From the IMG/VR virus record IMGVR_UViG_2526164598_000024: a stretch of DNA of 34,178 nucleotides. One strand, written 5' to 3'. A model generated the notes under the pieces. The model was given only the letters and a program-made list of their open reading frames with translations. It was not told the origin of the DNA and searched no databases. This document shows positions 5,977 to 27,628 of this stretch, in pieces. Positions within the stretch are counted from its first letter, which is position 1. Each line of letters starts with the position of its first letter. The translations under genes were made by a program, and so were the position numbers. The stretch comes from a virus (lineage: Duplodnaviria; Heunggongvirae; Uroviricota; Caudoviricetes).

Positions 5977-6921
5977 ATGCCAACAGTAGTTTCACTTTTT
6001 TCTGGATGCGGTGGTTCCGATGCGGGGGTTCTGAGAGCTGGCTTTGATGTGCTTATGGCCAACGATATCTTGCCGTATGCGCGCGATGTTTATATTGCCA
6101 ATCATCCAGAAACTGATTACATTTTAGGCAATATTGCTGATGTAACTACTTTTCCTAAATCTGATTTGCTAGTAGGTTGTTATCCATGTCAGGGATTCAG
6201 CCAGGGTGGTGCGCGTAAGGCCGATCGAAAAATTAATACTCTTTATTTAGAGTTTGCTAGAGCTTTAAACAATATAAAGCCTAAAGCTTTTATAGTAGAA
6301 AACGTGTCTGGTATGGTTAGAAAAAACTTCGAGCATTTGTTATCTGACCAGATCAGGGTTTTTACTGAAGCAGGTTATGCTGTTTCAGCAAAAGTTTTGA
6401 ATGCGGCTGAATATGGAGTAGCGCAGGAAAGAAAAAGAATATTTATCGTAGGAATCCGTAATGATTTCAAAGTTAAGTACGAGTTCCCTCAGCCAACTCA
6501 TGGGCCGGCGACTGGCGTCAACTATGTTACTATTAAAGATGCTATAGGGCATTTACCTGAATGGCCAGAAGGTGAATTTTATGATATGGGGTTCCATTGG
6601 TATTATATGTCTCGCAATCGTCGCCAAGATTGGGATCAAATTTCAAAGACAATAGTTGCTAATGCAAGGCATATGCCGTTGCATCCTATCAGTCCTTCGA
6701 TGGAGAAAGTAAGAACTGATGAATGGAGGTTTGTTGAGGATCGGAGAGCTCGCAGATTCAGTTTTCGAGAGGCAGCACTATTACAAGGGTTTGAGGATCT
6801 AGTGTTTCCCGAAACAAATGCTGCAAGTCTTGGCATGAAATACACGGTGGTTGGTAATGCAGTGCCTCCGCCGCTTTTTGAAGCTGTAACGAAGGCATTG
6901 CCAATAGAATTATGGGATTGA
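5977..6921 (+). CDS. DNA (cytosine-5)-methyltransferase, Dcm family
   Basis: 314 aa; canonical C5-MTase motifs visible: FSGCGG (motif I, AdoMet binding), PCQGFS (motif IV catalytic Cys), IVENVSGM (motif VI), QERKRIFIVG (motif VIII), GNAVPPPL (motif X). Strong Shine-Dalgarno AGGAGG before ATG 5977. AT-rich compared with phage backbone. Confidence 0.9.
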   Translation: MPTVVSLFSGCGGSDAGVLRAGFDVLMANDILPYARDVYIANHPETDYILGNIADVTTFPKSDLLVGCYPCQGFSQGGARKADRKINTLYLEFARALNNIKPKAFIVENVSGMVRKNFEHLLSDQIRVFTEAGYAVSAKVLNAAEYGVAQERKRIFIVGIRNDFKVKYEFPQPTHGPATGVNYVTIKDAIGHLPEWPEGEFYDMGFHWYYMSRNRRQDWDQISKTIVANARHMPLHPISPSMEKVRTDEWRFVEDRRARRFSFREAALLQGFEDLVFPETNAASLGMKYTVVGNAVPPPLFEAVTKALPIELWD

Positions 6922-6928
6922 TAAGCTA

Positions 6929-7921
6929 TTAAGGCTCTGGATTTAATGTATAAAGTTCTTCTTCAAATTCGCGAAACCAATCAGAGGTAGTTATCGCTTC
7001 CCATTGGTTTGCCTTATCAAGTAGATATATGATCCTCAACCTATCTAATAATAATACACCAGCGGTTGCATGTGTGCTTACCCATTCGCCATTTGCTTCC
7101 CGATAGAAAACAGGCGTGAACATTGTTGATGGATGCTGGAAAGCAATTTGGAAATAGGTGGTCAGTTTTAACACGTTAGCCTCTAATGTTTTGCTTGGCC
7201 ACCCTGTTTCTTGTGCACCACATTGACCAAGAATTCCATAGTTGCTAGTTTGACCATCAGGAAATTCCACTGTAGCAATTAGGTCAAACCCAGCATCACC
7301 AGATGTGGGAGCTTTATTTATTTCCCTTGTGTTTAAACTACAAACTCCAAGATCTTTTCCTAAAATTTGTAGAGCATTCCGAAGATTCGTTCCATAATAT
7401 TTTTGCCTATCATCGGAGTTAGCATCAAAAATTCTTACGGTGCCATGTGCAGGTAAGAGAGAAATCATTGCAACTTTACATACTCTGGCAAAGCTCTTTG
7501 CCCAACGTTGTGCTGCTCCTCTAATCGACTTAAAGGATCTAAGTCTAGAGCAACAAAGGAGAAAAACATATATTCTTTGTTGTTGGTTTAGATTTTCTTT
7601 AATAATTATCTCATCACCTGAAATTATAAATGGATATATCTTTCCAAGAGCGCTTTCTCTATATTCGAGTTGTGTCCAAACATCTTCTAGTTGCTCTTCA
7701 AAACGATCATTTCTCTCTGCGTCTCCATCAATTTCTTCTTCAAAATTACATTCTTCATCAATTTCTTCAACACTTGTCATGCCGAATTTTCTTACTGAAT
7801 CTAAATCATTTTTATGCAGAGAGTTACGTCCGATATAATTAATCACCGTGAGTAACTCGGCTAAATCTGCAAACAAATGGGGAGAGTTGGGATGCATAAC
7901 TCCTACTTCAAAAGTCATCAT
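6929..7921 (-). CDS. Hypothetical protein, 330-aa, candidate nuclease/effector partner of the adjacent methyltransferase and ParB-like gene
   Basis: Long uninterrupted minus-strand ORF in AT-rich DNA; ATG at 7921/7918 preceded by GAGGTG; converges on the MTase with only a 7-bp gap between stop codons; overlaps the end of the upstream ParB-like gene by about 14 bp (operon-like). No motif I can assign with confidence. Confidence 0.7.
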   Translation of the reverse strand: MMTFEVGVMHPNSPHLFADLAELLTVINYIGRNSLHKNDLDSVRKFGMTSVEEIDEECNFEEEIDGDAERNDRFEEQLEDVWTQLEYRESALGKIYPFIISGDEIIIKENLNQQQRIYVFLLCCSRLRSFKSIRGAAQRWAKSFARVCKVAMISLLPAHGTVRIFDANSDDRQKYYGTNLRNALQILGKDLGVCSLNTREINKAPTSGDAGFDLIATVEFPDGQTSNYGILGQCGAQETGWPSKTLEANVLKLTTYFQIAFQHPSTMFTPVFYREANGEWVSTHATAGVLLLDRLRIIYLLDKANQWEAITTSDWFREFEEELYTLNPEP

Positions 7922-8350
7922 CACCTCTGCTATTTTTCTCTGCTATTTCAGAACCTATAAGCTTAATATGTTTATTGATTCTTCGTGCTACTTCATGAGC
8001 CTGTCTATCATACTCTACTGTGGCAACCATGCCTGCTGCATCTATCAAAGCCGCTTCAACTTGATAAAGTAACTGGAGAAAGTCCTTAGTAATATCAGAT
8101 GTCAATTGGTAGGCCACTGCGAGTGGAGCCCCCATTCGGAATTGCTCCAATGCCTTAGGGCTACTAACAACAGCAGCTAATTCTCTTAAATTACGTGACT
8201 CTCCAACACGAGTTTTTTTATCCTCACCTTTTTTATATAACCACTCAGTTAGCTCTTTTATTTCTTTGTTCTTTAAGCTATTAGAGTTGATAATAGGATG
8301 ACTTGGTATTGTGTCTCCATCGTCTTCGATTGAAACTCCGACAAATTGGC
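7908..8350 (-). pseudogene. C-terminal fragment of ParB/Srx-domain protein gene split by IS2
   Basis: Reading frame continues exactly from the N-terminal fragment (9682..10365) once IS2 and one TTGGC copy are removed: ...ERLGQ|FVGVSIEDDGDT.... The track ORF 7908..8387 borrows an in-frame GTG start inside the IS2 right end. Confidence 0.8.
8346..8350. repeat. IS2 target-site duplication TTGGC (copy 1)
   Basis: 5-bp direct repeat immediately flanking the IS2 terminus at 8351; identical to 9682..9686. Confidence 0.85.
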
Positions 8351-8361
8351 TGGATTTGCCC

Positions 8362-9267
8362 CTATATTTCCAGACACCTGTTATCACTTAACCCATTACT
8401 GGCCTGCTGCCGCAGATATTCCCGTGGCGAGCGATAACCCAGTGCACTATGCGGATGCCATTCGTTATAATGCTCGAACGCCTCTGCAAGGTTCTTTGCT
8501 GCCGTTAACCCGTCTGGTTTAGGCATGATACTGATGTAGTCACGCTTTATCGTTTTCACGAAGCTCTCTGCTATGCCGTTACTCTCCGGACTCCGCACCG
8601 CCGTGTTCTTCGGTTCAAGCCCCAACATCCGGGCAAACTGCCGTGTTTCATTAGCCCGGTAGCATGAACCATTATCCGTCAGCCACTCTACTGGAGACGC
8701 CGGAAGCTCGTTGCCGAAGCGGCGTTCCACCGCTCCCAGCATTACGTCCTGTACTGTTTCACTGTCGAAGCCGCCCGTAGTGACTGCCCAGTGCAGTGCC
8801 TCACGGTCACAGCAGTCCAGCGCGAACGTGACTCGCAGTTTTTCTCCGTTATCACAGCGGAACTCGAACCCGTCAGAGCACCATCGTTGATTGCTTTCTT
8901 TCACGGCCACTTTGCCAGTATGTGCCCGTTTCGATGGCGGTACAGCGGTTTTTCGCTCAAGCAACAGCGCATTCTGGCGCATGATCCGGTAAACACGTTT
9001 GGCATTGATCGCAGGCATACCATCAAGTTCGGCCTGTCTGCGAAGCAGCGCCCATACCCGACGATAACCATACGTGGGCAGCTCTCCGATAACATGGTGT
9101 ATACGGAGAAGCACATCCGTATCATCTGAGTGACGGCTGCGGCGACCATCTTTCCAGTCATCGGTTCGTCTGAGAATTACGTGCAACTGCGCACGCGACA
9201 CCCGGAGACAACGGCTGACTAAGCTTACTCCCCATCCCCGGGCAATAAGGGCGCGTGCGCTATCCAC
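8362..9267 (-). CDS. insD: IS2 transposase OrfB (InsD), DDE integrase domain
   Basis: 301-aa ORF inside IS2; recognisable IS2 InsD sequence (..[20 protein letters not shown]..); overlaps insC as expected for -1 frameshift fusion. Confidence 0.9.
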
Positions 9268-9590
9268 TTTTTTGCACGCCCGTATTCAACGGCTTCTTTA
9301 AGGAGTTCATTTTCCATCGTTTTTTTGCCGAGCAGGCGCTGGAGTTCTTTAATCTGCTTCATGGCAGCAGCAAGTTCAGAGGCAGGAACGACCTGCTCTC
9401 CTGCGGCCACAGCAGTAAGACTTCCCTCCTGGTATTGCTTGCGCCAGAGAAATAACTGGCTGGCTGCCACACCGTGTTGCCGGGCAACAAGGGAGACCGT
9501 CATTCCCGGTTCAAAACTCTGCTGAACAATAGCGATCTTTTCCTGTGTAGTACGCCGTCTGCGTTTCTCCGGTCCTAAGACATCAATCAT
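9225..9590 (-). CDS. insC: IS2 transposase OrfA (InsC), HTH DNA-binding
   Basis: ATG at 9590 gives 121 aa starting [18 protein letters not shown], recognisable as IS2 InsC; track ORF extends further upstream to an earlier start. Confidence 0.9.
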
Positions 9591-9678
9591 CTGCTCTCCA
9601 ATGACTAGTCTAAAAACTAGTATTAAGACTATCACTTATTTAAGTGATATTGGTTGTCTGGAGATTCAGGGGGCCAGT

Positions 9679-10365
9679 CTATTGGCCTAACCGCTCATCA
9701 GCAAGTGCTGTTGATAATACTGAAAATTTAATCGTTTCTTCATCTAGTTTTTCAATACCATAAAAATCATTTTCTTTAATGATTTCATACACCGCTAAAG
9801 CGTCTAGGTTACGCTTGATATGATCCCTACGACTGCCAATAGCTCTGGCAACCTCATAGTAGCGTAGCATCGGATCCTGATTTGCATTGGTATAATCAAA
9901 AAGCTGTTTAATATATCGAGCTTTTGATAAGGGCTCCCATTGTTTGACACCAGTAATATGTCTGAAACCAAGATACGGAAGAATCTCTTCTCTTGTTTGG
10001 CGCTCAATGACAGGAACACGATCGACTGTATGTTTTGCATTTGATGCAATTTCTCGTAGTCGAGCACTTGGATTTTCACATAGTGTCGGATCGCGTAATA
10101 ATTTAACTGCGGATAGGCGACGGTTTCCTTCAACTACAATGTACTTCCCCGGCGCGACACTGTCAGGAATGACAATCAATGGTTCTCCAGGGAAAAAACC
10201 ATTTTCCGCAATAGCACTCATTAGATCTTCGATAGATGTTGAGGTTGCTATGTAGTTAATCATTCCCAATTGGTCACGAGACACGCCTTCAGGAAGTCTT
10301 GGGTTTTCTGTGTCAAGTTCCAAATCATCTAGCGGAACATAAAGTATTTCTGAATCAGCAATCAT
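9679..10365 (-). pseudogene. N-terminal fragment of ParB/Srx N-domain protein gene, truncated by IS2 (stop codon supplied by IS2 terminus)
   Basis: 228-aa ORF with ATG at 10365 and GGAG Shine-Dalgarno; contains ParB-box-like motif IVVEGNRRLSAVKLL (GxxRxxA arginine patch of ParB/sulfiredoxin fold). The TAG stop at 9679..9681 is the first three bases of IS2 (TAGACTGG...). Confidence 0.8.
9682..9686. repeat. IS2 target-site duplication TTGGC (copy 2)
   Basis: Identical 5-mer to 8346..8350, directly abutting the other IS2 terminus. Confidence 0.85.
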
Positions 10366-22452: not shown

Positions 22453-24474
22453 ATGAGCACAAAATTCAGAACCGTTATCACCACTGCCGGTGCAGCAAAG
22501 CTGGCAGCGGCAACCGCGCCGGGAGGGCGGAAGGTCAACATTACCACGATGGCCGTCGGGGATGGCGGTGGTAAATTGCCTGTCCCGGATGCCGGACAGA
22601 CCGGGCTTATCCACGAAGTCTGGCGACATGCGCTGAACAAAATCAGCCAGGACAAACGAAACAGTAATTATATTATCGCAGAGCTGGTTATTCCGCCGGA
22701 GGTGGGCGGTTTCTGGATGCGTGAGCTTGGCCTGTACGATGATGCGGGAACGTTAATTGCCGTGGCGAACATGGCCGAAAGTTATAAGCCAGCTCTTGCC
22801 GAAGGCTCAGGGCGTTCGCAGACCTGCCGCATGGTCATCATCGTCAGCAGTGTGGCCTCAGTGGAGCTGACCATTGACACCACAACGGTGATGGCGACGC
22901 AGGATTACGTTGATGACAAAATTGCAGAGCACGAACAGTCACGACGTCACCCGGACGCCTCGCTGACCGCAAAAGGTTTTACTCAGTTAAGCAGTGCGAC
23001 CAACAGCATGTCTGAAATGCTTGCCGCAACGCCAAAAGCCGTTAAGACGGTAATGGATGAAACGAACAAGAAAGCGCCATTAAACAGCCCTGTACTGACC
23101 GGAACGCCAACGACGCCAACTGCGCGACAGGGAACGAATAATACTCAGATCGCAAACACGGCTTTCGTTATGGCCGCGATTGCCGCCCTTGTAGACTCGT
23201 CGCCTGACGCACTGAATACGCTGAACGAGCTGGCGGCGGCGCTGGGCAATGACCCGAATTTTGCTACCACCATGACTAATGCGCTTGCGGGTAAGCAACC
23301 GAAAGATGCTACCCTGACGGCGCTGGCGGGGCTTGCTACTGCGGCAGACAGGTTTCCGTATTTTACGGGGAATGATGTTGCCAGCCTGGCAACCCTGACA
23401 AAAGTCGGGCGGGATATTCTGGCTAAATCGACCGTTGCCGCCGTTATCGAATATCTCGGTTTACAGGAAACGGTAAACCGAGCCGGGAACGCCGTGCAAA
23501 AAAATGGCGATACCTTGTCCGGTGGACTTACTTTTGAAAACGACTCAATCCTTGCCTGGATTCGAAATACTGACTGGGCGAAGATTGGATTTAAAAATGA
23601 TGCCGATGGTGACACTGATTCATTCATGTGGTTTGAAACGGGGGATAACGGCAATGAATATTTCAAATGGAGAAGCCGCCAGAGTACTACAACAAAAGAC
23701 CTGATGAATCTTAAATGGGATGCTTTGTATGTTCTTGTCAATGCCATTGTAAATGGCGAAGTCATATCAAAATCAGCAAACGGCCTACGTATTGCTTATG
23801 GTAATTACGGATTCTTTATTCGTAATGATGGTTCAAATACATACTTCATGTTGACAAACTCCGGTGACAACATGGGGACTTATAACGGATTAAGGCCATT
23901 ATGGATTAATAACGCTACTGGCGCTGTTTCGATGGGGCGTGGCCTTAATGTTTCAGGGGAGACGCTTTCAGACCGTTTTGCTATTAACAGCAGTAATGGT
24001 ATGTGGATTCAGATGCGCGATAACAACGCTATCTTTGGGAAAAATATAGTTAACACTGATAGCGCTCAGGCGTTGCTTCGCCAGAATCACGCTGACCGCA
24101 AGTTCATGATAGGTGGACTGGGGAACAAGCAATTTGGCATCTACATGATTAATAACTCAAGGACAGCCAATGGCACCGATGGTCAGGCGTACATGGATAA
24201 TAACGGTAACTGGCTTTGTGGCTCGCAAGTTATTCCCGGCAACTATGGCAATTTTGATTCCAGATATGTGAAAGATGTTCGACTTGGTTCACAGCAATAT
24301 TATGGAGTTAACAACTGGCAAACATGGAATTTCCAGTGCCCGTCAGGTCATGTATTGTCTGGTATTAATGTTCAGGATACAGGGTCCAACTCTGCCGATA
24401 ATATAGCGGGCGTTTATTACAGACCCGTTCAAAAGTATATAAATGGCACCTGGTATAATGTAGCGAGCGTTTAA
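22453..24474 (+). CDS. H: Tail fibre protein H
   Basis: 673 aa; Ala/Thr-rich repeats in the N-terminal half, Asn/Gly-rich C-terminal receptor-binding part; followed by tail-fibre assembly gene. Confidence 0.85.
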
Positions 24475-24475
24475 T

Positions 24476-25003
24476 ATGATGCACTTAAAGAACATAAAAG
24501 CGGGTAACGCTAAAACACTGGAACAGTATGAGTTAACAAAGAAACACGGAGTTATCTGGCTTTACTCTGAGGACGGAAAAAACTGGTATGAGGAAGTGAA
24601 GAACTTTCAGCCAGACACAATAAAGATTGTTTACGATGAAAATAATATTATTGTCGCTATCACCAGAGATGCTTCAACGCTTAATCCTGAAGGTTTTAGC
24701 GTTGTTGAGGTTCCTGATATTACCTCCAACCGACGTGCTGACGACTCAGGTAAATGGATGTTTAAGGATGGTGCTGTGGTTAAACGGATTTATACGGCAG
24801 ATGAACAGCAACAACAGGCAGAATCACAAAAGGCAGCGTTACTTTCCGAAGCGGAAAGCGTTATTCAGCCACTGGAACGCGCTGTCAGGCTGAATATGGC
24901 GACGGATGAGGAACGTGCACGACTGGAGTCATGGGAACGCTACAGCGTTCTGGTCAGCCGTGTGGATCCTGCAAATCCTGAATGGCCGGAAATGCCGCAA
25001 TAA
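24476..25003 (+). CDS. G: Tail fibre assembly chaperone G
   Basis: 175 aa; ATG 2 bp after H stop; P2 gpG length. Confidence 0.85.
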
Positions 25004-25218
25004 GTTGTATGAGCTCTAGTGTGGGCTTACATATCTATGGCACAGAGTAAAGCCTAATCTGACAGTCCACTCTGTGCCAGAGGTGGGCATTGCTGATGTC
25101 ATAAAATATTATGCCAGCAGCCGTCTTAGGGGAGTGTTTACATTTCAATGATCGGGTATGATCTCGGCATGTTAATGGTTTATTACTAAATGCTTGCGCC
25201 TATCTTTATGGAGGAGTA

Positions 25219-26118
25219 ATGAGTGGTATTCGTATAACTCAGGCTATTGATAACAATCAGATTTTAGTCAATGTAAATACTTTTAATTATAGTGTTAATC
25301 CCTATCCACTCAAATGTCCTGACCCAAATTGCTCTGCTCATTTGGTGTATGTCAAAAGCCATATTCGTCGGAGTTTTAATAAAACCTTGCATATCCCCGC
25401 CTTCTTTAGACTGGAAAAAAATTTCACGCATGACAAATTATGTCAGTATGGAACTTCAGGATTGAATACAATTTATGCAAGTGATTCCAGTCATGATATC
25501 AGCCGTGCGCTTGCCACAGGTAATAATATATTCCGTATACATATACTCGATGAAGATGATATCTCTAAATTAAGCAGAAAAGCTGCAGCTATGCAGGCAA
25601 ATCCACCTTCTGATACTACAGACCGCGTTTATGTCAAGAGAGGTCGGAAAGCCCCCTATGTGAAGAACATGGATAGCTTACGGGAGATCTATGAATATGG
25701 AAAAGCTCACCCCAACAAGAGAAACAGCATAAAAATTGTTACTGGAACAAGTACTGTAACGTGGTCTGATTTTTTCTATGAAACAACGCAGTTAGAACGA
25801 TTGTCAACTTACCTCCAGAAAGTAAAAATAGCTCAGGTTGCTGTAATTATGAAAGTGCATGTGGCGAGAATCCCTATGGCGAAATTTAATTATCGACACT
25901 TCATTGAAGGTTCGCCAATGAGGATAAAAGGGGGCTTTAATATATATCCTACGATTCAATTAGGAAATGTTACTCCAAAATTATTTCCGTTGAGTAGCAT
26001 TGTCATGGTACTCGGTAAATTTACTATTCCAACAAATAGAAAAATGATAATGGATCCAACATTTGAGCGTGAAGTCAGAACCATAGTTTCTAGTGAAGAG
26101 CAAGTGCTAATTCTTTGA
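25219..26118 (+). CDS. Hypothetical protein in the Z/fun cargo locus (candidate phage-exclusion/defence gene)
   Basis: 299-aa ORF with strong GGAGGA Shine-Dalgarno, visibly AT-rich, flanked by long non-coding spacers between G and FI (the P2 Z/fun position). N-terminal Cys/His cluster (CPDPNCSAHLVYVKSH). May be the P2 Z/fun homologue; I cannot confirm from memory. Confidence 0.65.
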   Translation: MSGIRITQAIDNNQILVNVNTFNYSVNPYPLKCPDPNCSAHLVYVKSHIRRSFNKTLHIPAFFRLEKNFTHDKLCQYGTSGLNTIYASDSSHDISRALATGNNIFRIHILDEDDISKLSRKAAAMQANPPSDTTDRVYVKRGRKAPYVKNMDSLREIYEYGKAHPNKRNSIKIVTGTSTVTWSDFFYETTQLERLSTYLQKVKIAQVAVIMKVHVARIPMAKFNYRHFIEGSPMRIKGGFNIYPTIQLGNVTPKLFPLSSIVMVLGKFTIPTNRKMIMDPTFEREVRTIVSSEEQVLIL

Positions 26119-26437
26119 AATCAAGAGGATTTGGCTCGGATGATTATGTGCGGCTTATAACCATAACGTAATGAGCGGATTTTTCTACTGCTTTTTATCA
26201 TTTTGGTTAACTAAAACTAATCTCTGCTCCTCGCTCAAAGCAGACTGTCAGATTTGATAGCGTTTTGGCTATGTAAATTGTCAGTCGGAAAATGAGTGAG
26301 TACAAATCAGGACAGGCGGGCGAATTGCCTGCCTTTTCTTTATCTGTTGTTTCATCCACTGACCAGCCAGGTCAAATAGCGTCTCATGCTCTGCACAACA
26401 GAAAATAGTTGCACCCATTAACCACGGAGTTAAACGG

Positions 26438-27628
26438 ATGAGCGACTATCATCATGGCGTGCAGGTGCTGGAGATTAACGACGGCACCCGCGTCATTTCC
26501 ACTGTATCCACCGCCATTGTCGGCATGGTCTGCACGGCCAGCGATGCGGATGCGGAAACCTTCCCCCTCAATAAACCGGTGCTGATTACCAATGTGCAGA
26601 GCGCAATTGCAAAGGCTGGTAAAAAAGGCACGCTGGCGGCATCGTTGCAGGCCATCGCTGACCAGTCAAAACCGGTCACCGTTGTTGTGCGTGTGGAAGA
26701 CGGCACCGGCGACGACGAGGAAACGAAACTCGCGCAGACCGTATCCAATATCATCGGCACCACCGACGAAAACGGTCAGTACACCGGACTGAAAGCCCTG
26801 CTGGCGGCGGAGTCGGTAACCGGTGTTAAACCGCGTATTCTCGGCGTGCCGGGGCTGGATACCAAAGAGGTGGCTGTTGCACTGGCATCAGTCTGTCAGA
26901 AGCTGCGCGCTTTCGGGTATATCAGCGCATGGGGCTGTAAAACCATTTCCGAGGTGAAAGCCTACCGCCAGAATTTCAGCCAGCGTGAGCTGATGGTCAT
27001 CTGGCCAGATTTCCTCGCATGGGATACGGTCACCAGTACCACCGCCACCGCGTATGCCACCGCCCGTGCGCTGGGTCTGCGCGCTAAAATCGACCAGGAG
27101 CAGGGCTGGCATAAAACGCTGTCCAATGTCGGGGTAAACGGTGTTACCGGCATCAGTGCCTCTGTATTCTGGGATTTGCAGGAGTCCGGCACCGATGCTG
27201 ACCTGTTGAACGAGTCAGGTGTCACAACGCTGATTCGCCGTGACGGTTTCCGCTTCTGGGGTAACCGTACCTGCTCTGATGACCCGCTGTTCCTCTTTGA
27301 AAACTACACCCGCACCGCGCAGGTGCTGGCCGACACGATGGCTGAGGCGCACATGTGGGCGGTGGACAAGCCCATCACCGCAACGCTGATTCGCGACATC
27401 GTTGACGGCATCAATGCCAAATTCCGTGAGCTGAAAACAAACGGCTATATCGTGGATGCGACCTGCTGGTTCAGCGAAGAATCCAACGATGCGGAAACCC
27501 TCAAGGCCGGAAAACTGTATATCGACTACGACTATACACCGGTGCCTCCTCTTGAAAACCTGACCCTGCGCCAGCGTATTACCGATAAATACCTGGCAAA
27601 TCTGGTCACCTCGGTTAACAGCAATTAA
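26438..27628 (+). CDS. FI: Contractile tail sheath protein FI
   Basis: 396 aa, P2 gpFI length; ACGGAG Shine-Dalgarno; followed by tube gene. Confidence 0.9.
   Translation: MSDYHHGVQVLEINDGTRVISTVSTAIVGMVCTASDADAETFPLNKPVLITNVQSAIAKAGKKGTLAASLQAIADQSKPVTVVVRVEDGTGDDEETKLAQTVSNIIGTTDENGQYTGLKALLAAESVTGVKPRILGVPGLDTKEVAVALASVCQKLRAFGYISAWGCKTISEVKAYRQNFSQRELMVIWPDFLAWDTVTSTTATAYATARALGLRAKIDQEQGWHKTLSNVGVNGVTGISASVFWDLQESGTDADLLNESGVTTLIRRDGFRFWGNRTCSDDPLFLFENYTRTAQVLADTMAEAHMWAVDKPITATLIRDIVDGINAKFRELKTNGYIVDATCWFSEESNDAETLKAGKLYIDYDYTPVPPLENLTLRQRITDKYLANLVTSVNSN

What the first reader, a model, noticed from the sequence alone, without database searches (positions are those of the whole stretch)
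25004..26437. Second cargo locus (Z/fun position) with an AT-rich 299-aa gene of unknown function
Between tail-fibre assembly gene G and sheath gene FI there is about 1.4 kb of visibly AT-rich DNA with a single well-expressed-looking ORF (GGAGGA Shine-Dalgarno, 299 aa) and long non-coding spacers on each side. This matches the second variable cargo site of P2-like phages, which in P2 holds Z/fun, a gene that excludes phage T5 (established knowledge). The protein has an N-terminal Cys/His cluster and no domain I recognise. It could be the Z/fun homologue or a different single-gene exclusion system.
Basis: partly seen in the sequence, partly recalled or inferred. Interest (0 to 1): 0.6.

Follow-up and report, generated by a model that had tools for sequence, protein, structure and literature searches.

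The report
Uncharacterised zinc/OB-fold cargo gene in P2 hotspot
The AT-rich gene between the tail-fibre and tail-sheath genes of this P2-like phage is phage Wphi's orf44, a mobile single gene that is unrelated to P2's Z/fun, is predicted to make a basic zinc-binding, nucleic-acid-binding protein, and keeps turning up beside known anti-phage systems, so it is a plausible but untested new defence gene.

Summary
The 1,434 bp between G (ends 25003) and FI (starts 26438) have 36-40% GC, against about 55-58% in the backbone. They contain one real gene, 25219-26118 (+), 299 aa, with a GGAGGA Shine-Dalgarno.

The protein is 100% identical to phage Wphi gp44 (orf44, "hypothetical"). It has no detectable relation to P2 Fun(Z), Tin, any Pfam, NCBIfam or PADLOC model, or any PDB sequence. 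Its only match is PHROG 7195, function unknown.

An exhaustive profile search finds about 150 distant clusters of roughly 300-aa proteins. They share an invariant C-x4-C...H-x3-C motif. A confident AlphaFold model (pLDDT 89.8) has a C-terminal OB-fold that matches only nucleic-acid binders (MCM N-terminal domain, RPA, MCM10, AspRS anticodon domain). The protein is basic (pI 9.8) and no acidic position reaches 80% conservation.

Relatives lie next to retron I-B, JukA with type I R-M, Tmn, AbiH, AbiTii and Hachiman, and one lies in a lambdoid phage nin region. That makes 10 defence-linked settings among the 15 examined, or 11 counting this hotspot.

My best reading is a mobile single-gene defence candidate that acts by binding nucleic acid. 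This is inferred, not shown. The hotspot itself is already described in the literature.

The parts
24476..25003 (+). Tail-fibre assembly gene G (175 aa). This is the conserved left neighbour of the hotspot.
   Evidence: ORF. Annotated as gpG in Wphi, P2 and other P2-like phages at the matching position.
25004..25090 (.). Conserved P2-backbone left border. It holds a hairpin (arms 25035-25048 / 25069-25082) with no T-tract after it, so it is not an obvious intrinsic terminator. It also holds the left arm AATCTGACAG (25056-25065) of an inverted repeat that brackets the cargo.
   Evidence: Alignment of 8 P2-like phages with different cargos: identity decays at about 25090-25098. Repeats. Fold energy -24.9 kcal/mol, z = -1.6.
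25091..25218 (+). Cargo-specific 5' leader of orf44. It contains a weak sigma-70-like match (25084-25112, TGGGCA-17-TATTAT, 9 of 12) and the GGAGGA Shine-Dalgarno at 25210-25215.
   Evidence: The stretch 25127-25218 travels with the gene into an unrelated lambdoid phage (L037). Only about 21 nt upstream of the ATG is shared with the Serratia copy.
25219..26118 (+). orf44, which is Wphi gp44 (299 aa, pI 9.8). The predicted architecture is an N-terminal beta-rich zinc module, a long helix, an alpha/beta middle domain and a C-terminal OB-fold.
25315..25443 (+). Codons 33-75. They encode the invariant C33-x4-C38 ... H71-x3-C75 putative zinc site, with F63, R64 and L65 conserved between the two halves.
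   Evidence: C33, C38, H71 and C75 are invariant in 73 homologues of 16-73% identity. Mean pLDDT in the 10-residue blocks covering residues 31-80 is 79-95.
25828..26115 (+). Codons 204-299. They encode the predicted OB-fold beta-barrel (strands 204-220, 226-231, 241-248, 261-269, 283-290).
26119..26221 (.). Cargo-specific 3' spacer, which moves together with the gene.
   Evidence: Homology to the lambdoid-phage copy L037 runs to 26232. Homology to other P2-like phages resumes only at about 26217-26255.
26222..26437 (+). Conserved P2-backbone right border. It contains:
- a hairpin at 26223-26244;
- the right arm CTGTCAGATT (26245-26254) of the inverted repeat;
- a strong intrinsic terminator at 26314-26334 with a T-tract to about 26344;
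- the equivalent of the pF Ogr/activator site at 26344-26370;
- the equivalent of the pF transcription start at 26412-26414.

A 45-aa minus-strand ORF (26281-26418) overlaps these signals and is probably spurious.
   Evidence: Alignment. Terminator scan; its fold is -17.9 kcal/mol, z = -4.3, with 0 of 200 shuffles as stable. P2's annotated features were mapped onto the window.
26438..27628 (+). Tail sheath gene FI (396 aa). This is the conserved right neighbour of the hotspot.

Best explanation
The locus is hotspot 2 (the Z/fun site) of a Wphi-type P2-like prophage. Its cargo is a self-contained single-gene cassette of about 1.13 kb (about 25091-26221), recently acquired and AT-rich.

The product, Wphi gp44, is a basic protein of about 34 kDa. 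It is built from a CCHC zinc module, a helical and alpha/beta middle part, and a C-terminal OB-fold. It has no recognisable catalytic site.

I propose that it is a stand-alone anti-phage (superinfection-exclusion or abortive-type) protein. It would work stoichiometrically by binding a nucleic acid of the invader, most likely single-stranded DNA replication or recombination intermediates, or possibly an RNA. It might also work by disturbing the invader's own ssDNA-binding machinery. P2 Tin is a functional analogy only: it poisons T4 gp32 (established knowledge, recalled).

Transcription probably comes from a weak promoter of its own in the lysogen. Read-through from the late V-H-G operon is also likely, because no terminator lies between G and orf44. 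Both transcripts would end at the conserved terminator at 26314-26334.

Shown here:
- the gene is real and under purifying selection;
- it is gp44;
- it is not Fun(Z);
- it is a cassette that moves between unrelated elements;
- the predicted fold and the invariant CCHC motif;
- its repeated placement next to defence systems.

Inferred, not shown: zinc binding, nucleic-acid binding, the defence phenotype, the target and the promoter.
For: Hotspot:
- Eight P2-like phages hold eight unrelated cargos between identical borders.
- This locus is published as a defence-enriched P2 hotspot (PMC9519451).

Real gene:
- dN/dS is 0.15-0.22.
- 115 of 5,426 complete E. coli genomes carry the whole interval at 80% coverage or more, out of 1,033 genomes with any match to this interval.

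Family:
- 151 clusters at 50% identity, nearly all 300-330 aa.
- C33, C38, H71 and C75 are invariant. Basic and aromatic positions are conserved (R/K5, R50, R64, R106, F63, Y147, W182, F185).
- No acidic position reaches the 80% group-conservation level; the nearest is position 162, acidic in 79% of sequences. pI is 9.8.

Fold:
- AF2 pLDDT 89.8, pTM 0.72.

Context, from 14 settings outside this window, with no conserved partner gene across them:
- retron I-B RT plus ATPase-Toprim at a Morganella prophage end;
- JukA plus type I HsdR in Serratia;
- Tmn;
- AbiH three times;
- Hachiman, AbiJ and BrnTA;
- Hachiman, NACHT and AGS_C;
- AbiTii, MC2 and CTD6;
- HEPN and UvrD;
- a lambdoid nin region.
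Against: - No experiment exists for this gene or for any homologue that I could find.
- No known defence model matches, so the defence role is guilt by association only.
- Five of the 15 settings show no recognised defence neighbour: transposases with a large helicase-topoisomerase (L018), bacteriocin genes (L009), two plasmid regions (L024, L025) and a lambdoid nin region (L037).
- There is no effector or enzymatic domain, which is unusual for a single-gene defence.
- The gene is co-oriented with late structural operons and no terminator lies upstream. It may therefore be expressed mainly in lytic growth, which fits a phage-benefit function as well.
- The promoter prediction is weak (9 of 12).
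Confidence: 0.5

Rival explanations
1. It is a phage-benefit accessory gene rather than host defence. The protein would be an SSB-like or nucleic-acid-binding factor made late in P2 lytic growth. It might protect or process phage DNA, or counter a host defence that senses ssDNA (anti-defence).
For: - The gene has the same orientation as the late V-H-G operon, and the hairpin after G has no T-tract. Late read-through into orf44 is therefore likely.
- The fold is OB-type, like phage SSBs.
- It also sits in a lambdoid nin region among replication-associated accessory genes.
Against: - Close and distant homologues sit in chromosomal islands and plasmids with no phage genes around them, next to bona fide defence systems.
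- It is dispensable and variable among near-identical P2-like phages.
- Anti-defence genes were reported as rare in P2 elements (PMC13586616).
Confidence: 0.15
2. It is a lysogenic-conversion gene with a non-defence role. One example is a DNA- or RNA-binding regulator or nucleoid-associated protein that changes host physiology. Another is a gene involved in bacterial competition.
For: - The protein is basic, is predicted to bind nucleic acid, and has no enzymatic site.
- One homologue lies beside colicin and pyocin genes.
- P2 hotspots also carry non-defence cargo (PMC9122126).
Against: - Ten of the 14 settings outside this window include recognised defence genes. No conserved metabolic or virulence partner appears in any of them.
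- A patchy, island-borne distribution from Enterobacterales to Pseudomonas, Vibrio and Bacillus plasmids is the typical signature of conflict systems.
Confidence: 0.2
3. It is one half of a two-component system, for example with AbiH or another neighbour, and it is an inactive orphan in the P2 hotspot.
For: - An orf44-family gene lies directly upstream of AbiH, 60-136 nt away on the same strand, in two Pseudomonas islands with different flanks. In these two islands the orf44-family proteins are 85% identical and the AbiH proteins 78% identical.
- AbiH also lies about 600 nt from a disrupted copy on a Vibrio plasmid.
Against: - Most settings, including this window, the Serratia, Morganella and Proteus copies and several Pseudomonas islands, lack AbiH or any other shared neighbour.
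- The downstream gene in L005 is unrelated to AbiH.
- The enterobacterial copies are under purifying selection as solitary genes.
- AbiH is itself known as a single-gene Abi (established knowledge).
Confidence: 0.1
4. It is the Z/fun homologue of this phage and excludes T5 in the same way as P2 Fun(Z).
For: Only the position between G and FI.
Against: - Fun(Z) is 528 aa and lies on the opposite strand.
- BLASTP gives E=3.6. Profile-sequence hhalign gives probability 0.6%.
Confidence: 0.02

Closest known systems
Escherichia phage Wphi orf44 / gp44 (AAN28239.1; RefSeq WP_000014362.1; PHROG 7195)
   Same: The protein is 100% identical. The position between G and FI is the same. PHROG 7195 matches over the full length at E = 6e-218.
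   Different: Nothing differs; it is the same gene. It is annotated only as hypothetical, and PHROG 7195 has no known function.
P2 Fun(Z), the T5-exclusion and FUdR-sensitivity gene at the same site
   Same: It occupies the same variable site between G and FI. It is likewise an AT-rich, non-essential, single-gene cargo.
   Different: There is no sequence or profile similarity. Fun(Z) is 528 aa against 299 aa, and lies on the opposite strand.
P2 Tin, which excludes T-even phages by poisoning the gp32 ssDNA-binding protein (established knowledge, recalled: Mosig et al. 1997)
   Same: It is a P2 hotspot-borne single protein without an obvious enzymatic domain. It acts at the level of ssDNA-protein complexes, which is the kind of mechanism proposed here.
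   Different: There is no homology (hhalign probability 0.1%). Tin lies in hotspot 1. The mechanistic parallel is an inference only.
Zinc-containing OB-fold ssDNA binders: the MCM N-terminal domain, the MCM10 internal domain and RPA70 DBD-C
   Different: - Sequence identity is 6-16%, and there is no Pfam or PDB sequence match.
- In gp44 the zinc module is N-terminal and separated from the OB barrel by about 130 residues.
- There is no helicase or other partner domain.
- This is fold-level resemblance, not family membership.
Other hotspot-2 defence cargos of P2-like phages (the PD-T4 and PD-Lambda systems of Vassallo et al. 2022; the SMEK-domain protein in phage 12474III)
   Same: They occupy the same hotspot and are also small, AT-rich, one- or two-gene cassettes.
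   Different: No PADLOC model for these systems matches gp44 or any consistent subset of the 73 family members: four unrelated models hit one member each at E of 3e-4 or weaker.

Membership tests
P2 Fun(Z) | Sequence homology to P2 Fun(Z) (NP_046777.1, 528 aa) | tested here: not met
   BLASTP E=3.6. hhalign of the 73-sequence profile against Fun(Z) gives probability 0.6%.
P2 Fun(Z) | Location between G and FI | tested here: met
   Fun(Z) is on the minus strand and orf44 is on the plus strand.
P2 Fun(Z) | Blocks phage T5 and confers FUdR sensitivity | not testable with these tools
   This needs plating assays.
P2-like hotspot-2 (Z/fun site) cargo cassette | Unrelated cargos in related phages, inserted between the same conserved backbone borders | tested here: met
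   Eight phages carry eight cargos. The left border lies at about 25090 and the right border at about 26222.
P2-like hotspot-2 (Z/fun site) cargo cassette | Composition unlike the backbone, indicating recent horizontal acquisition | tested here: met
   GC is 0.35-0.41 against 0.53-0.59. The gene has GC 0.372 and GC3 0.321.
P2-like hotspot-2 (Z/fun site) cargo cassette | Anti-phage phenotype of the cargo | not testable with these tools
   I found no published test of this gene.
Known anti-phage defence families (PADLOC-DB 2.0) | A significant match to a defence-protein HMM | tested here: not met
   The query gets 0 hits at E of 1 or better. Among the 73 family members there are only four scattered single-member hits, at E of 3e-4 or weaker.
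Pfam / NCBIfam curated families | Any curated domain match | tested here: not met
   The PDB sequence profile search gave nothing better than E=7.6.
PHROG 7195 (Wphi gp44 family) | Full-length profile match | tested here: met
   E = 5.8e-218 over 1-299 of 299. All 73 diverse homologues match it.
OB-fold nucleic-acid-binding proteins | A five-stranded beta-barrel with OB topology | tested here: met
OB-fold nucleic-acid-binding proteins | Demonstrated binding of ssDNA or RNA | not testable with these tools
   The only support is indirect: pI 9.8 and conserved Arg/Lys and aromatic positions.
Zinc-binding (CCHC) module | Four invariant Cys/His ligands with knuckle-like spacing | tested here: met
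   C33-x4-C38 and H71-x3-C75 are invariant in 73 sequences at 16-73% identity. Metal binding itself was not tested.
Xer (dif/cer)-type site-specific cassette insertion | A dif-, cer- or psi-like 28-30 bp site at the cassette borders | tested here: not met
   The best arm matches are 13-15 of 22, which equals the shuffle expectation.

The most novel reading that the evidence does not exclude
gp44 founds a new mechanistic class of single-protein immunity. It would be a non-enzymatic zinc/OB-fold protein that, on its own, recognises a phage-specific ssDNA or RNA intermediate, or mimics or poisons the phage's SSB. It would thereby stop replication without a nuclease, NADase, membrane or other effector domain. 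The family is carried by P2-like and lambdoid prophages and by defence islands from Enterobacterales to Pseudomonas, with relatives on Vibrio, Pseudoalteromonas and Bacillus plasmids.
Probability: 0.2. Interest if true: 0.7.

Novelty: new variant of a known kind. Interest (0 to 1): 0.45.

Why it matters
P2-like prophages are present in roughly a fifth of complete E. coli genomes: 1,033 of 5,426 match this interval. Their two hotspots are proven reservoirs of defence systems. About one in nine of the genomes with a match to this interval carries this same uncharacterised gene (115 genomes).

If gp44 protects against phages, it would add a defence family that current detectors (PADLOC, Pfam and NCBIfam as tested here) cannot see. 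Its architecture is binding domains only, with no effector, which would point to an inhibitory mechanism rather than a destructive one.

It is also a very easy target. It is one 900-bp gene from the classical phage Wphi and E. coli W, with clear point mutants to test (C33, C38, H71, C75).

If it gives no phenotype, it is simply one more hypothetical moron in a known hotspot.

Tried and rejected
1. Z/fun homology: rejected.
2. Homology to P2 Tin, or to the 'metal-binding' hotspot-2 cargo of phage pro147: none.
3. Any Pfam, NCBIfam or PADLOC family, for the query and for 73 homologues: none. PDB by sequence profile: none.
4. First AlphaFold run with only 13 close homologues: unusable, pLDDT 47. 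It was replaced by the 73-sequence run.
5. The afdb50 fold library was unavailable.
6. Genome-collection scans. The closer alignment found no confirmed locus in the one-genome-per-species set.
7. Xer/dif-like recombination sites at the cassette borders. I recalled the title of Nilsson et al. 2004, but the paper is not held. No site scores above chance.
8. Known ncRNA in the spacers: Rfam gives nothing above noise. The left-border hairpin is not significantly stable (z = -1.6).
9. Literature and supplement searches for WP_000014362 or 'Wphi orf44': no hits.
10. AbiH as an obligate partner: rejected as a general rule (and the context calls).
11. The 45-aa minus-strand ORF at 26281-26418: it lies in conserved backbone over the pF promoter and has no Pfam match. 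I treat it as probably spurious.

Full report
**1. The observation**

Gene G (24476-25003, 175 aa) and gene FI (26438-27628, 396 aa) flank 1,434 bp. The only substantial ORF in that interval is 25219-26118 on the plus strand (299 aa). A GGAGGA motif sits at 25210-25215. GC in 300-bp windows is 0.35-0.41 between 25000 and 26350, against 0.53-0.59 in the tail genes on either side.

The ORF is a genuine gene. Its N-terminus MSGI(R/K)I and its full length are conserved in homologues. dN/dS against the Serratia, Proteus and Morganella copies is 0.15-0.22, with dS of about 1.

**2. What the locus is**

The window is a P2-like prophage of the Wphi type. The interval is 96-98% identical to Wphi, to Yersinia phage HQ103 and to one 'Peduovirus P2' isolate. 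It is 100% identical to a prophage in E. coli TW10590. The protein is 100% identical to Wphi gp44, the product of orf44. Its RefSeq entry is WP_000014362.1, 'hypothetical protein'.

Seven other P2-like phages carry seven different cargos at the same place:
- P2 carries Fun(Z).
- 12474III carries a SMEK-domain protein.
- L-413C, P2_AC1, 569R9, pro147 and P2DC1 each carry another unrelated cargo.

Alignment of the borders shows that backbone homology stops at about 25090 on the left and resumes at about 26222 on the right. The true cargo is therefore about 1.13 kb.

The remaining 'spacer' is P2 backbone. On the right it holds a strong intrinsic terminator at 26314-26334 (z = -4.3). It also holds the pF late promoter. 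P2's annotated Ogr site and transcription start map to 26344-26370 and 26412-26414.

This site is already described in the literature as a second, defence-enriched P2 hotspot:
- Vassallo et al. 2022, PMC9519451.
- The iLund4u preprint.
- Moura de Sousa et al. 2026, PMC13586616.

In complete E. coli genomes, 1,033 of 5,426 match part of the interval. Of these, 115 carry the whole orf44 interval.

**3. It is not Z/fun**

P2 Fun(Z) is 528 aa and lies on the opposite strand. BLASTP gives E=3.6. A 73-sequence profile against Fun(Z) gives 0.6% probability. There is likewise no relation to P2 Tin or to the 'metal-binding' cargo of phage pro147.

**4. The protein**

No Pfam, NCBIfam or PADLOC model matches. 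The only hit is PHROG 7195, of unknown function.

Close relatives (65% identity or more) form only 12 clusters in Enterobacterales. An exhaustive profile search of 1.8 billion representatives finds 151 clusters at E of 1e-3 or better, nearly all 300-330 aa. Relatives occur in Pseudomonas, and tblastn finds weaker, partial matches on Vibrio, Pseudoalteromonas, Bacillus and Klebsiella plasmids.

In an alignment of 73 members (16-73% identity to the query), C33, C38, H71 and C75 are invariant. The spacing is C-x4-C...H-x3-C, a putative zinc site. F63, L65, Y147, W182, F185 and Q295 are nearly invariant, and several basic positions are conserved. No acidic position reaches 80% conservation (the nearest, position 162, is acidic in 79% of members). 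The pI is 9.8.

AlphaFold with the shallow alignment failed (pLDDT 47). With the 73-sequence alignment it gave pLDDT 89.8 and pTM 0.72. The model has four parts:
- a beta-rich N-terminal zinc module;
- a long helix at residues 112-127;
- an alpha/beta middle part;
- a C-terminal five-stranded barrel at residues 204-299.

I read this as a non-enzymatic protein that binds nucleic acid. Zinc binding and nucleic-acid binding are both inferred, not shown.

**5. Where relatives live**

No partner gene is shared across the settings. Among the 14 settings I examined outside this window, 10 include recognised defence genes:
- Morganella (71% identity): beside a retron I-B (RT plus ATPase-Toprim) at the int-proximal end of a prophage.
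- Serratia fonticola (73% identity): beside JukA and a type I HsdR, in an island bounded by an integrase.
- Six Pseudomonas settings:
  - HEPN, a UvrD-type helicase and DUF4062;
  - BrnTA, AbiJ, AAA_21 with HNH, and Hachiman;
  - SMEK, AbiH and QatB;
  - Tmn;
  - AbiH with integrases;
  - Hachiman, AGS_C and NACHT.
- A food-metagenome contig: AbiTii, MC2 and CTD6.
- A Vibrio plasmid: AbiH, GIY-YIG and AAA genes beside a disrupted copy.

An IMG/VR contig carries an 88%-identical copy in the nin region of a lambdoid phage. Its neighbours are lambda P, MT-A70, DUF968, GIY-YIG and HNH genes. DNA homology to the window covers just 25127-26232, which is the cargo segment itself.

The other four settings show no recognised defence gene. 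They are colicin and pyocin genes in Proteus, a transposon-rich region, and two plasmids.

The gene therefore behaves as an autonomous cassette. It hops between unrelated temperate phages, plasmids and chromosomal defence islands.

**6. Mechanism**

Best reading (confidence about 0.5 overall): a single-gene anti-phage protein that acts by binding nucleic acid. It may sequester or block phage ssDNA or RNA intermediates, or interfere with the phage's own SSB machinery. P2 Tin poisoning T4 gp32 is a functional precedent, which I cite from recalled knowledge. It is not a homologue.

The gene is likely transcribed from a weak promoter of its own (candidate 25084-25112). Read-through from the late V-H-G operon is also likely, because the hairpin after G has no T-tract. 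Transcription would stop at the conserved terminator at 26314-26334.

Rival readings:
- a phage-benefit or anti-defence SSB-like factor (0.15);
- a non-defence conversion gene (0.2);
- an orphan half of a two-gene system, for example with AbiH (0.1);
- Z/fun equivalence (0.02).

**7. Novelty and verdict**

The hotspot is known, and the gene has sat in GenBank since the Wphi genome was deposited. What is new is the characterisation made here:
- a widespread, unannotated family with a CCHC zinc motif and an OB-fold;
- no effector domain;
- a mobile single-gene cassette;
- strong association with defence loci.

It is invisible to the defence and domain libraries I could test. I rate it a new variant of a known kind (hotspot-borne single-gene defence candidates) and of moderate interest. 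The function is untested, but the experiment that would decide it is simple.

Noticed in passing
window 25056-25065 and 26245-26254 (with hairpins at 25035-25082 and 26223-26244): The cargo is bracketed by an exact 10-nt inverted repeat, AATCTGACAG / CTGTCAGATT, which extends to 25 nt at 80% complementarity. A hairpin lies just inside each arm.

The motif lies in the conserved backbone of most P2-like phages examined, whatever their cargo; several have a point change in one arm, and pro147 lacks the right arm. It is absent from non-P2 copies of the gene. These are the only two exact copies in the 34-kb window.

It could be a remnant of a split palindrome or terminator, or a recombination substrate for cassette swapping. 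No Xer/dif-like site was found.
   Followed up: partly
window 5977-10365 (hotspot 1, between gene A and portal gene Q): The first cargo locus holds the following:
- a C5 cytosine DNA methyltransferase (5977-6921, Pfam E = 5e-65);
- two unannotated minus-strand ORFs (6929-7924 of 331 aa, and 7908-8387 of 159 aa) that could be its restriction partner;
- an IS3-family transposase in two frames (8362-9635);
- a 228-aa ORF (9679-10365) that matches only the N-terminal 160-200 residues of the roughly 450-aa PD-Lambda-5_A profiles.

The last item suggests a PD-Lambda-5 system truncated by the IS.
   Followed up: partly
window 26281-26418 (minus strand): A 45-aa ORF is annotated as a hypothetical protein in phages 569R9 and pro147. 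It lies entirely in the conserved backbone and overlaps the terminator and the pF Ogr-binding site. It has no Pfam match. Its conservation is probably explained by the regulatory DNA it overlaps, so it is likely spurious.
   Followed up: partly
L007 10001-11965, L017 10001-11889, L023 5551-7900: In two Pseudomonas islands with different flanks, an orf44-family gene is followed 60-136 nt later by an AbiH gene. The orf44-family proteins are 85% identical and the AbiH proteins 78% identical. A Vibrio plasmid has AbiH about 600 nt upstream of a split, probably pseudogenised, family member. This may be a recurrent two-gene module in that subclade.
   Followed up: partly
L022 (E. coli TW10590 prophage, 100% match to window 25004-26437), locus positions 1-971: In the genome with the identical cassette, an IS3-family transposase abuts the region upstream of G. 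The H-position ORF is annotated as a 304-aa hypothetical protein rather than a full tail fibre. That prophage copy may therefore be disrupted in its tail-fibre gene.
   Followed up: no
window 23350-24700: GC drops to 0.38-0.47 across the 3' half of tail-fibre gene H and most of G, before the cargo locus begins. G and the end of H are only 75-86% identical to six of the seven other P2-like phages compared (92% to P2 itself), whereas FI is 91-97% identical. This suggests the receptor-binding end of H, together with G, forms its own exchangeable module.
   Followed up: no
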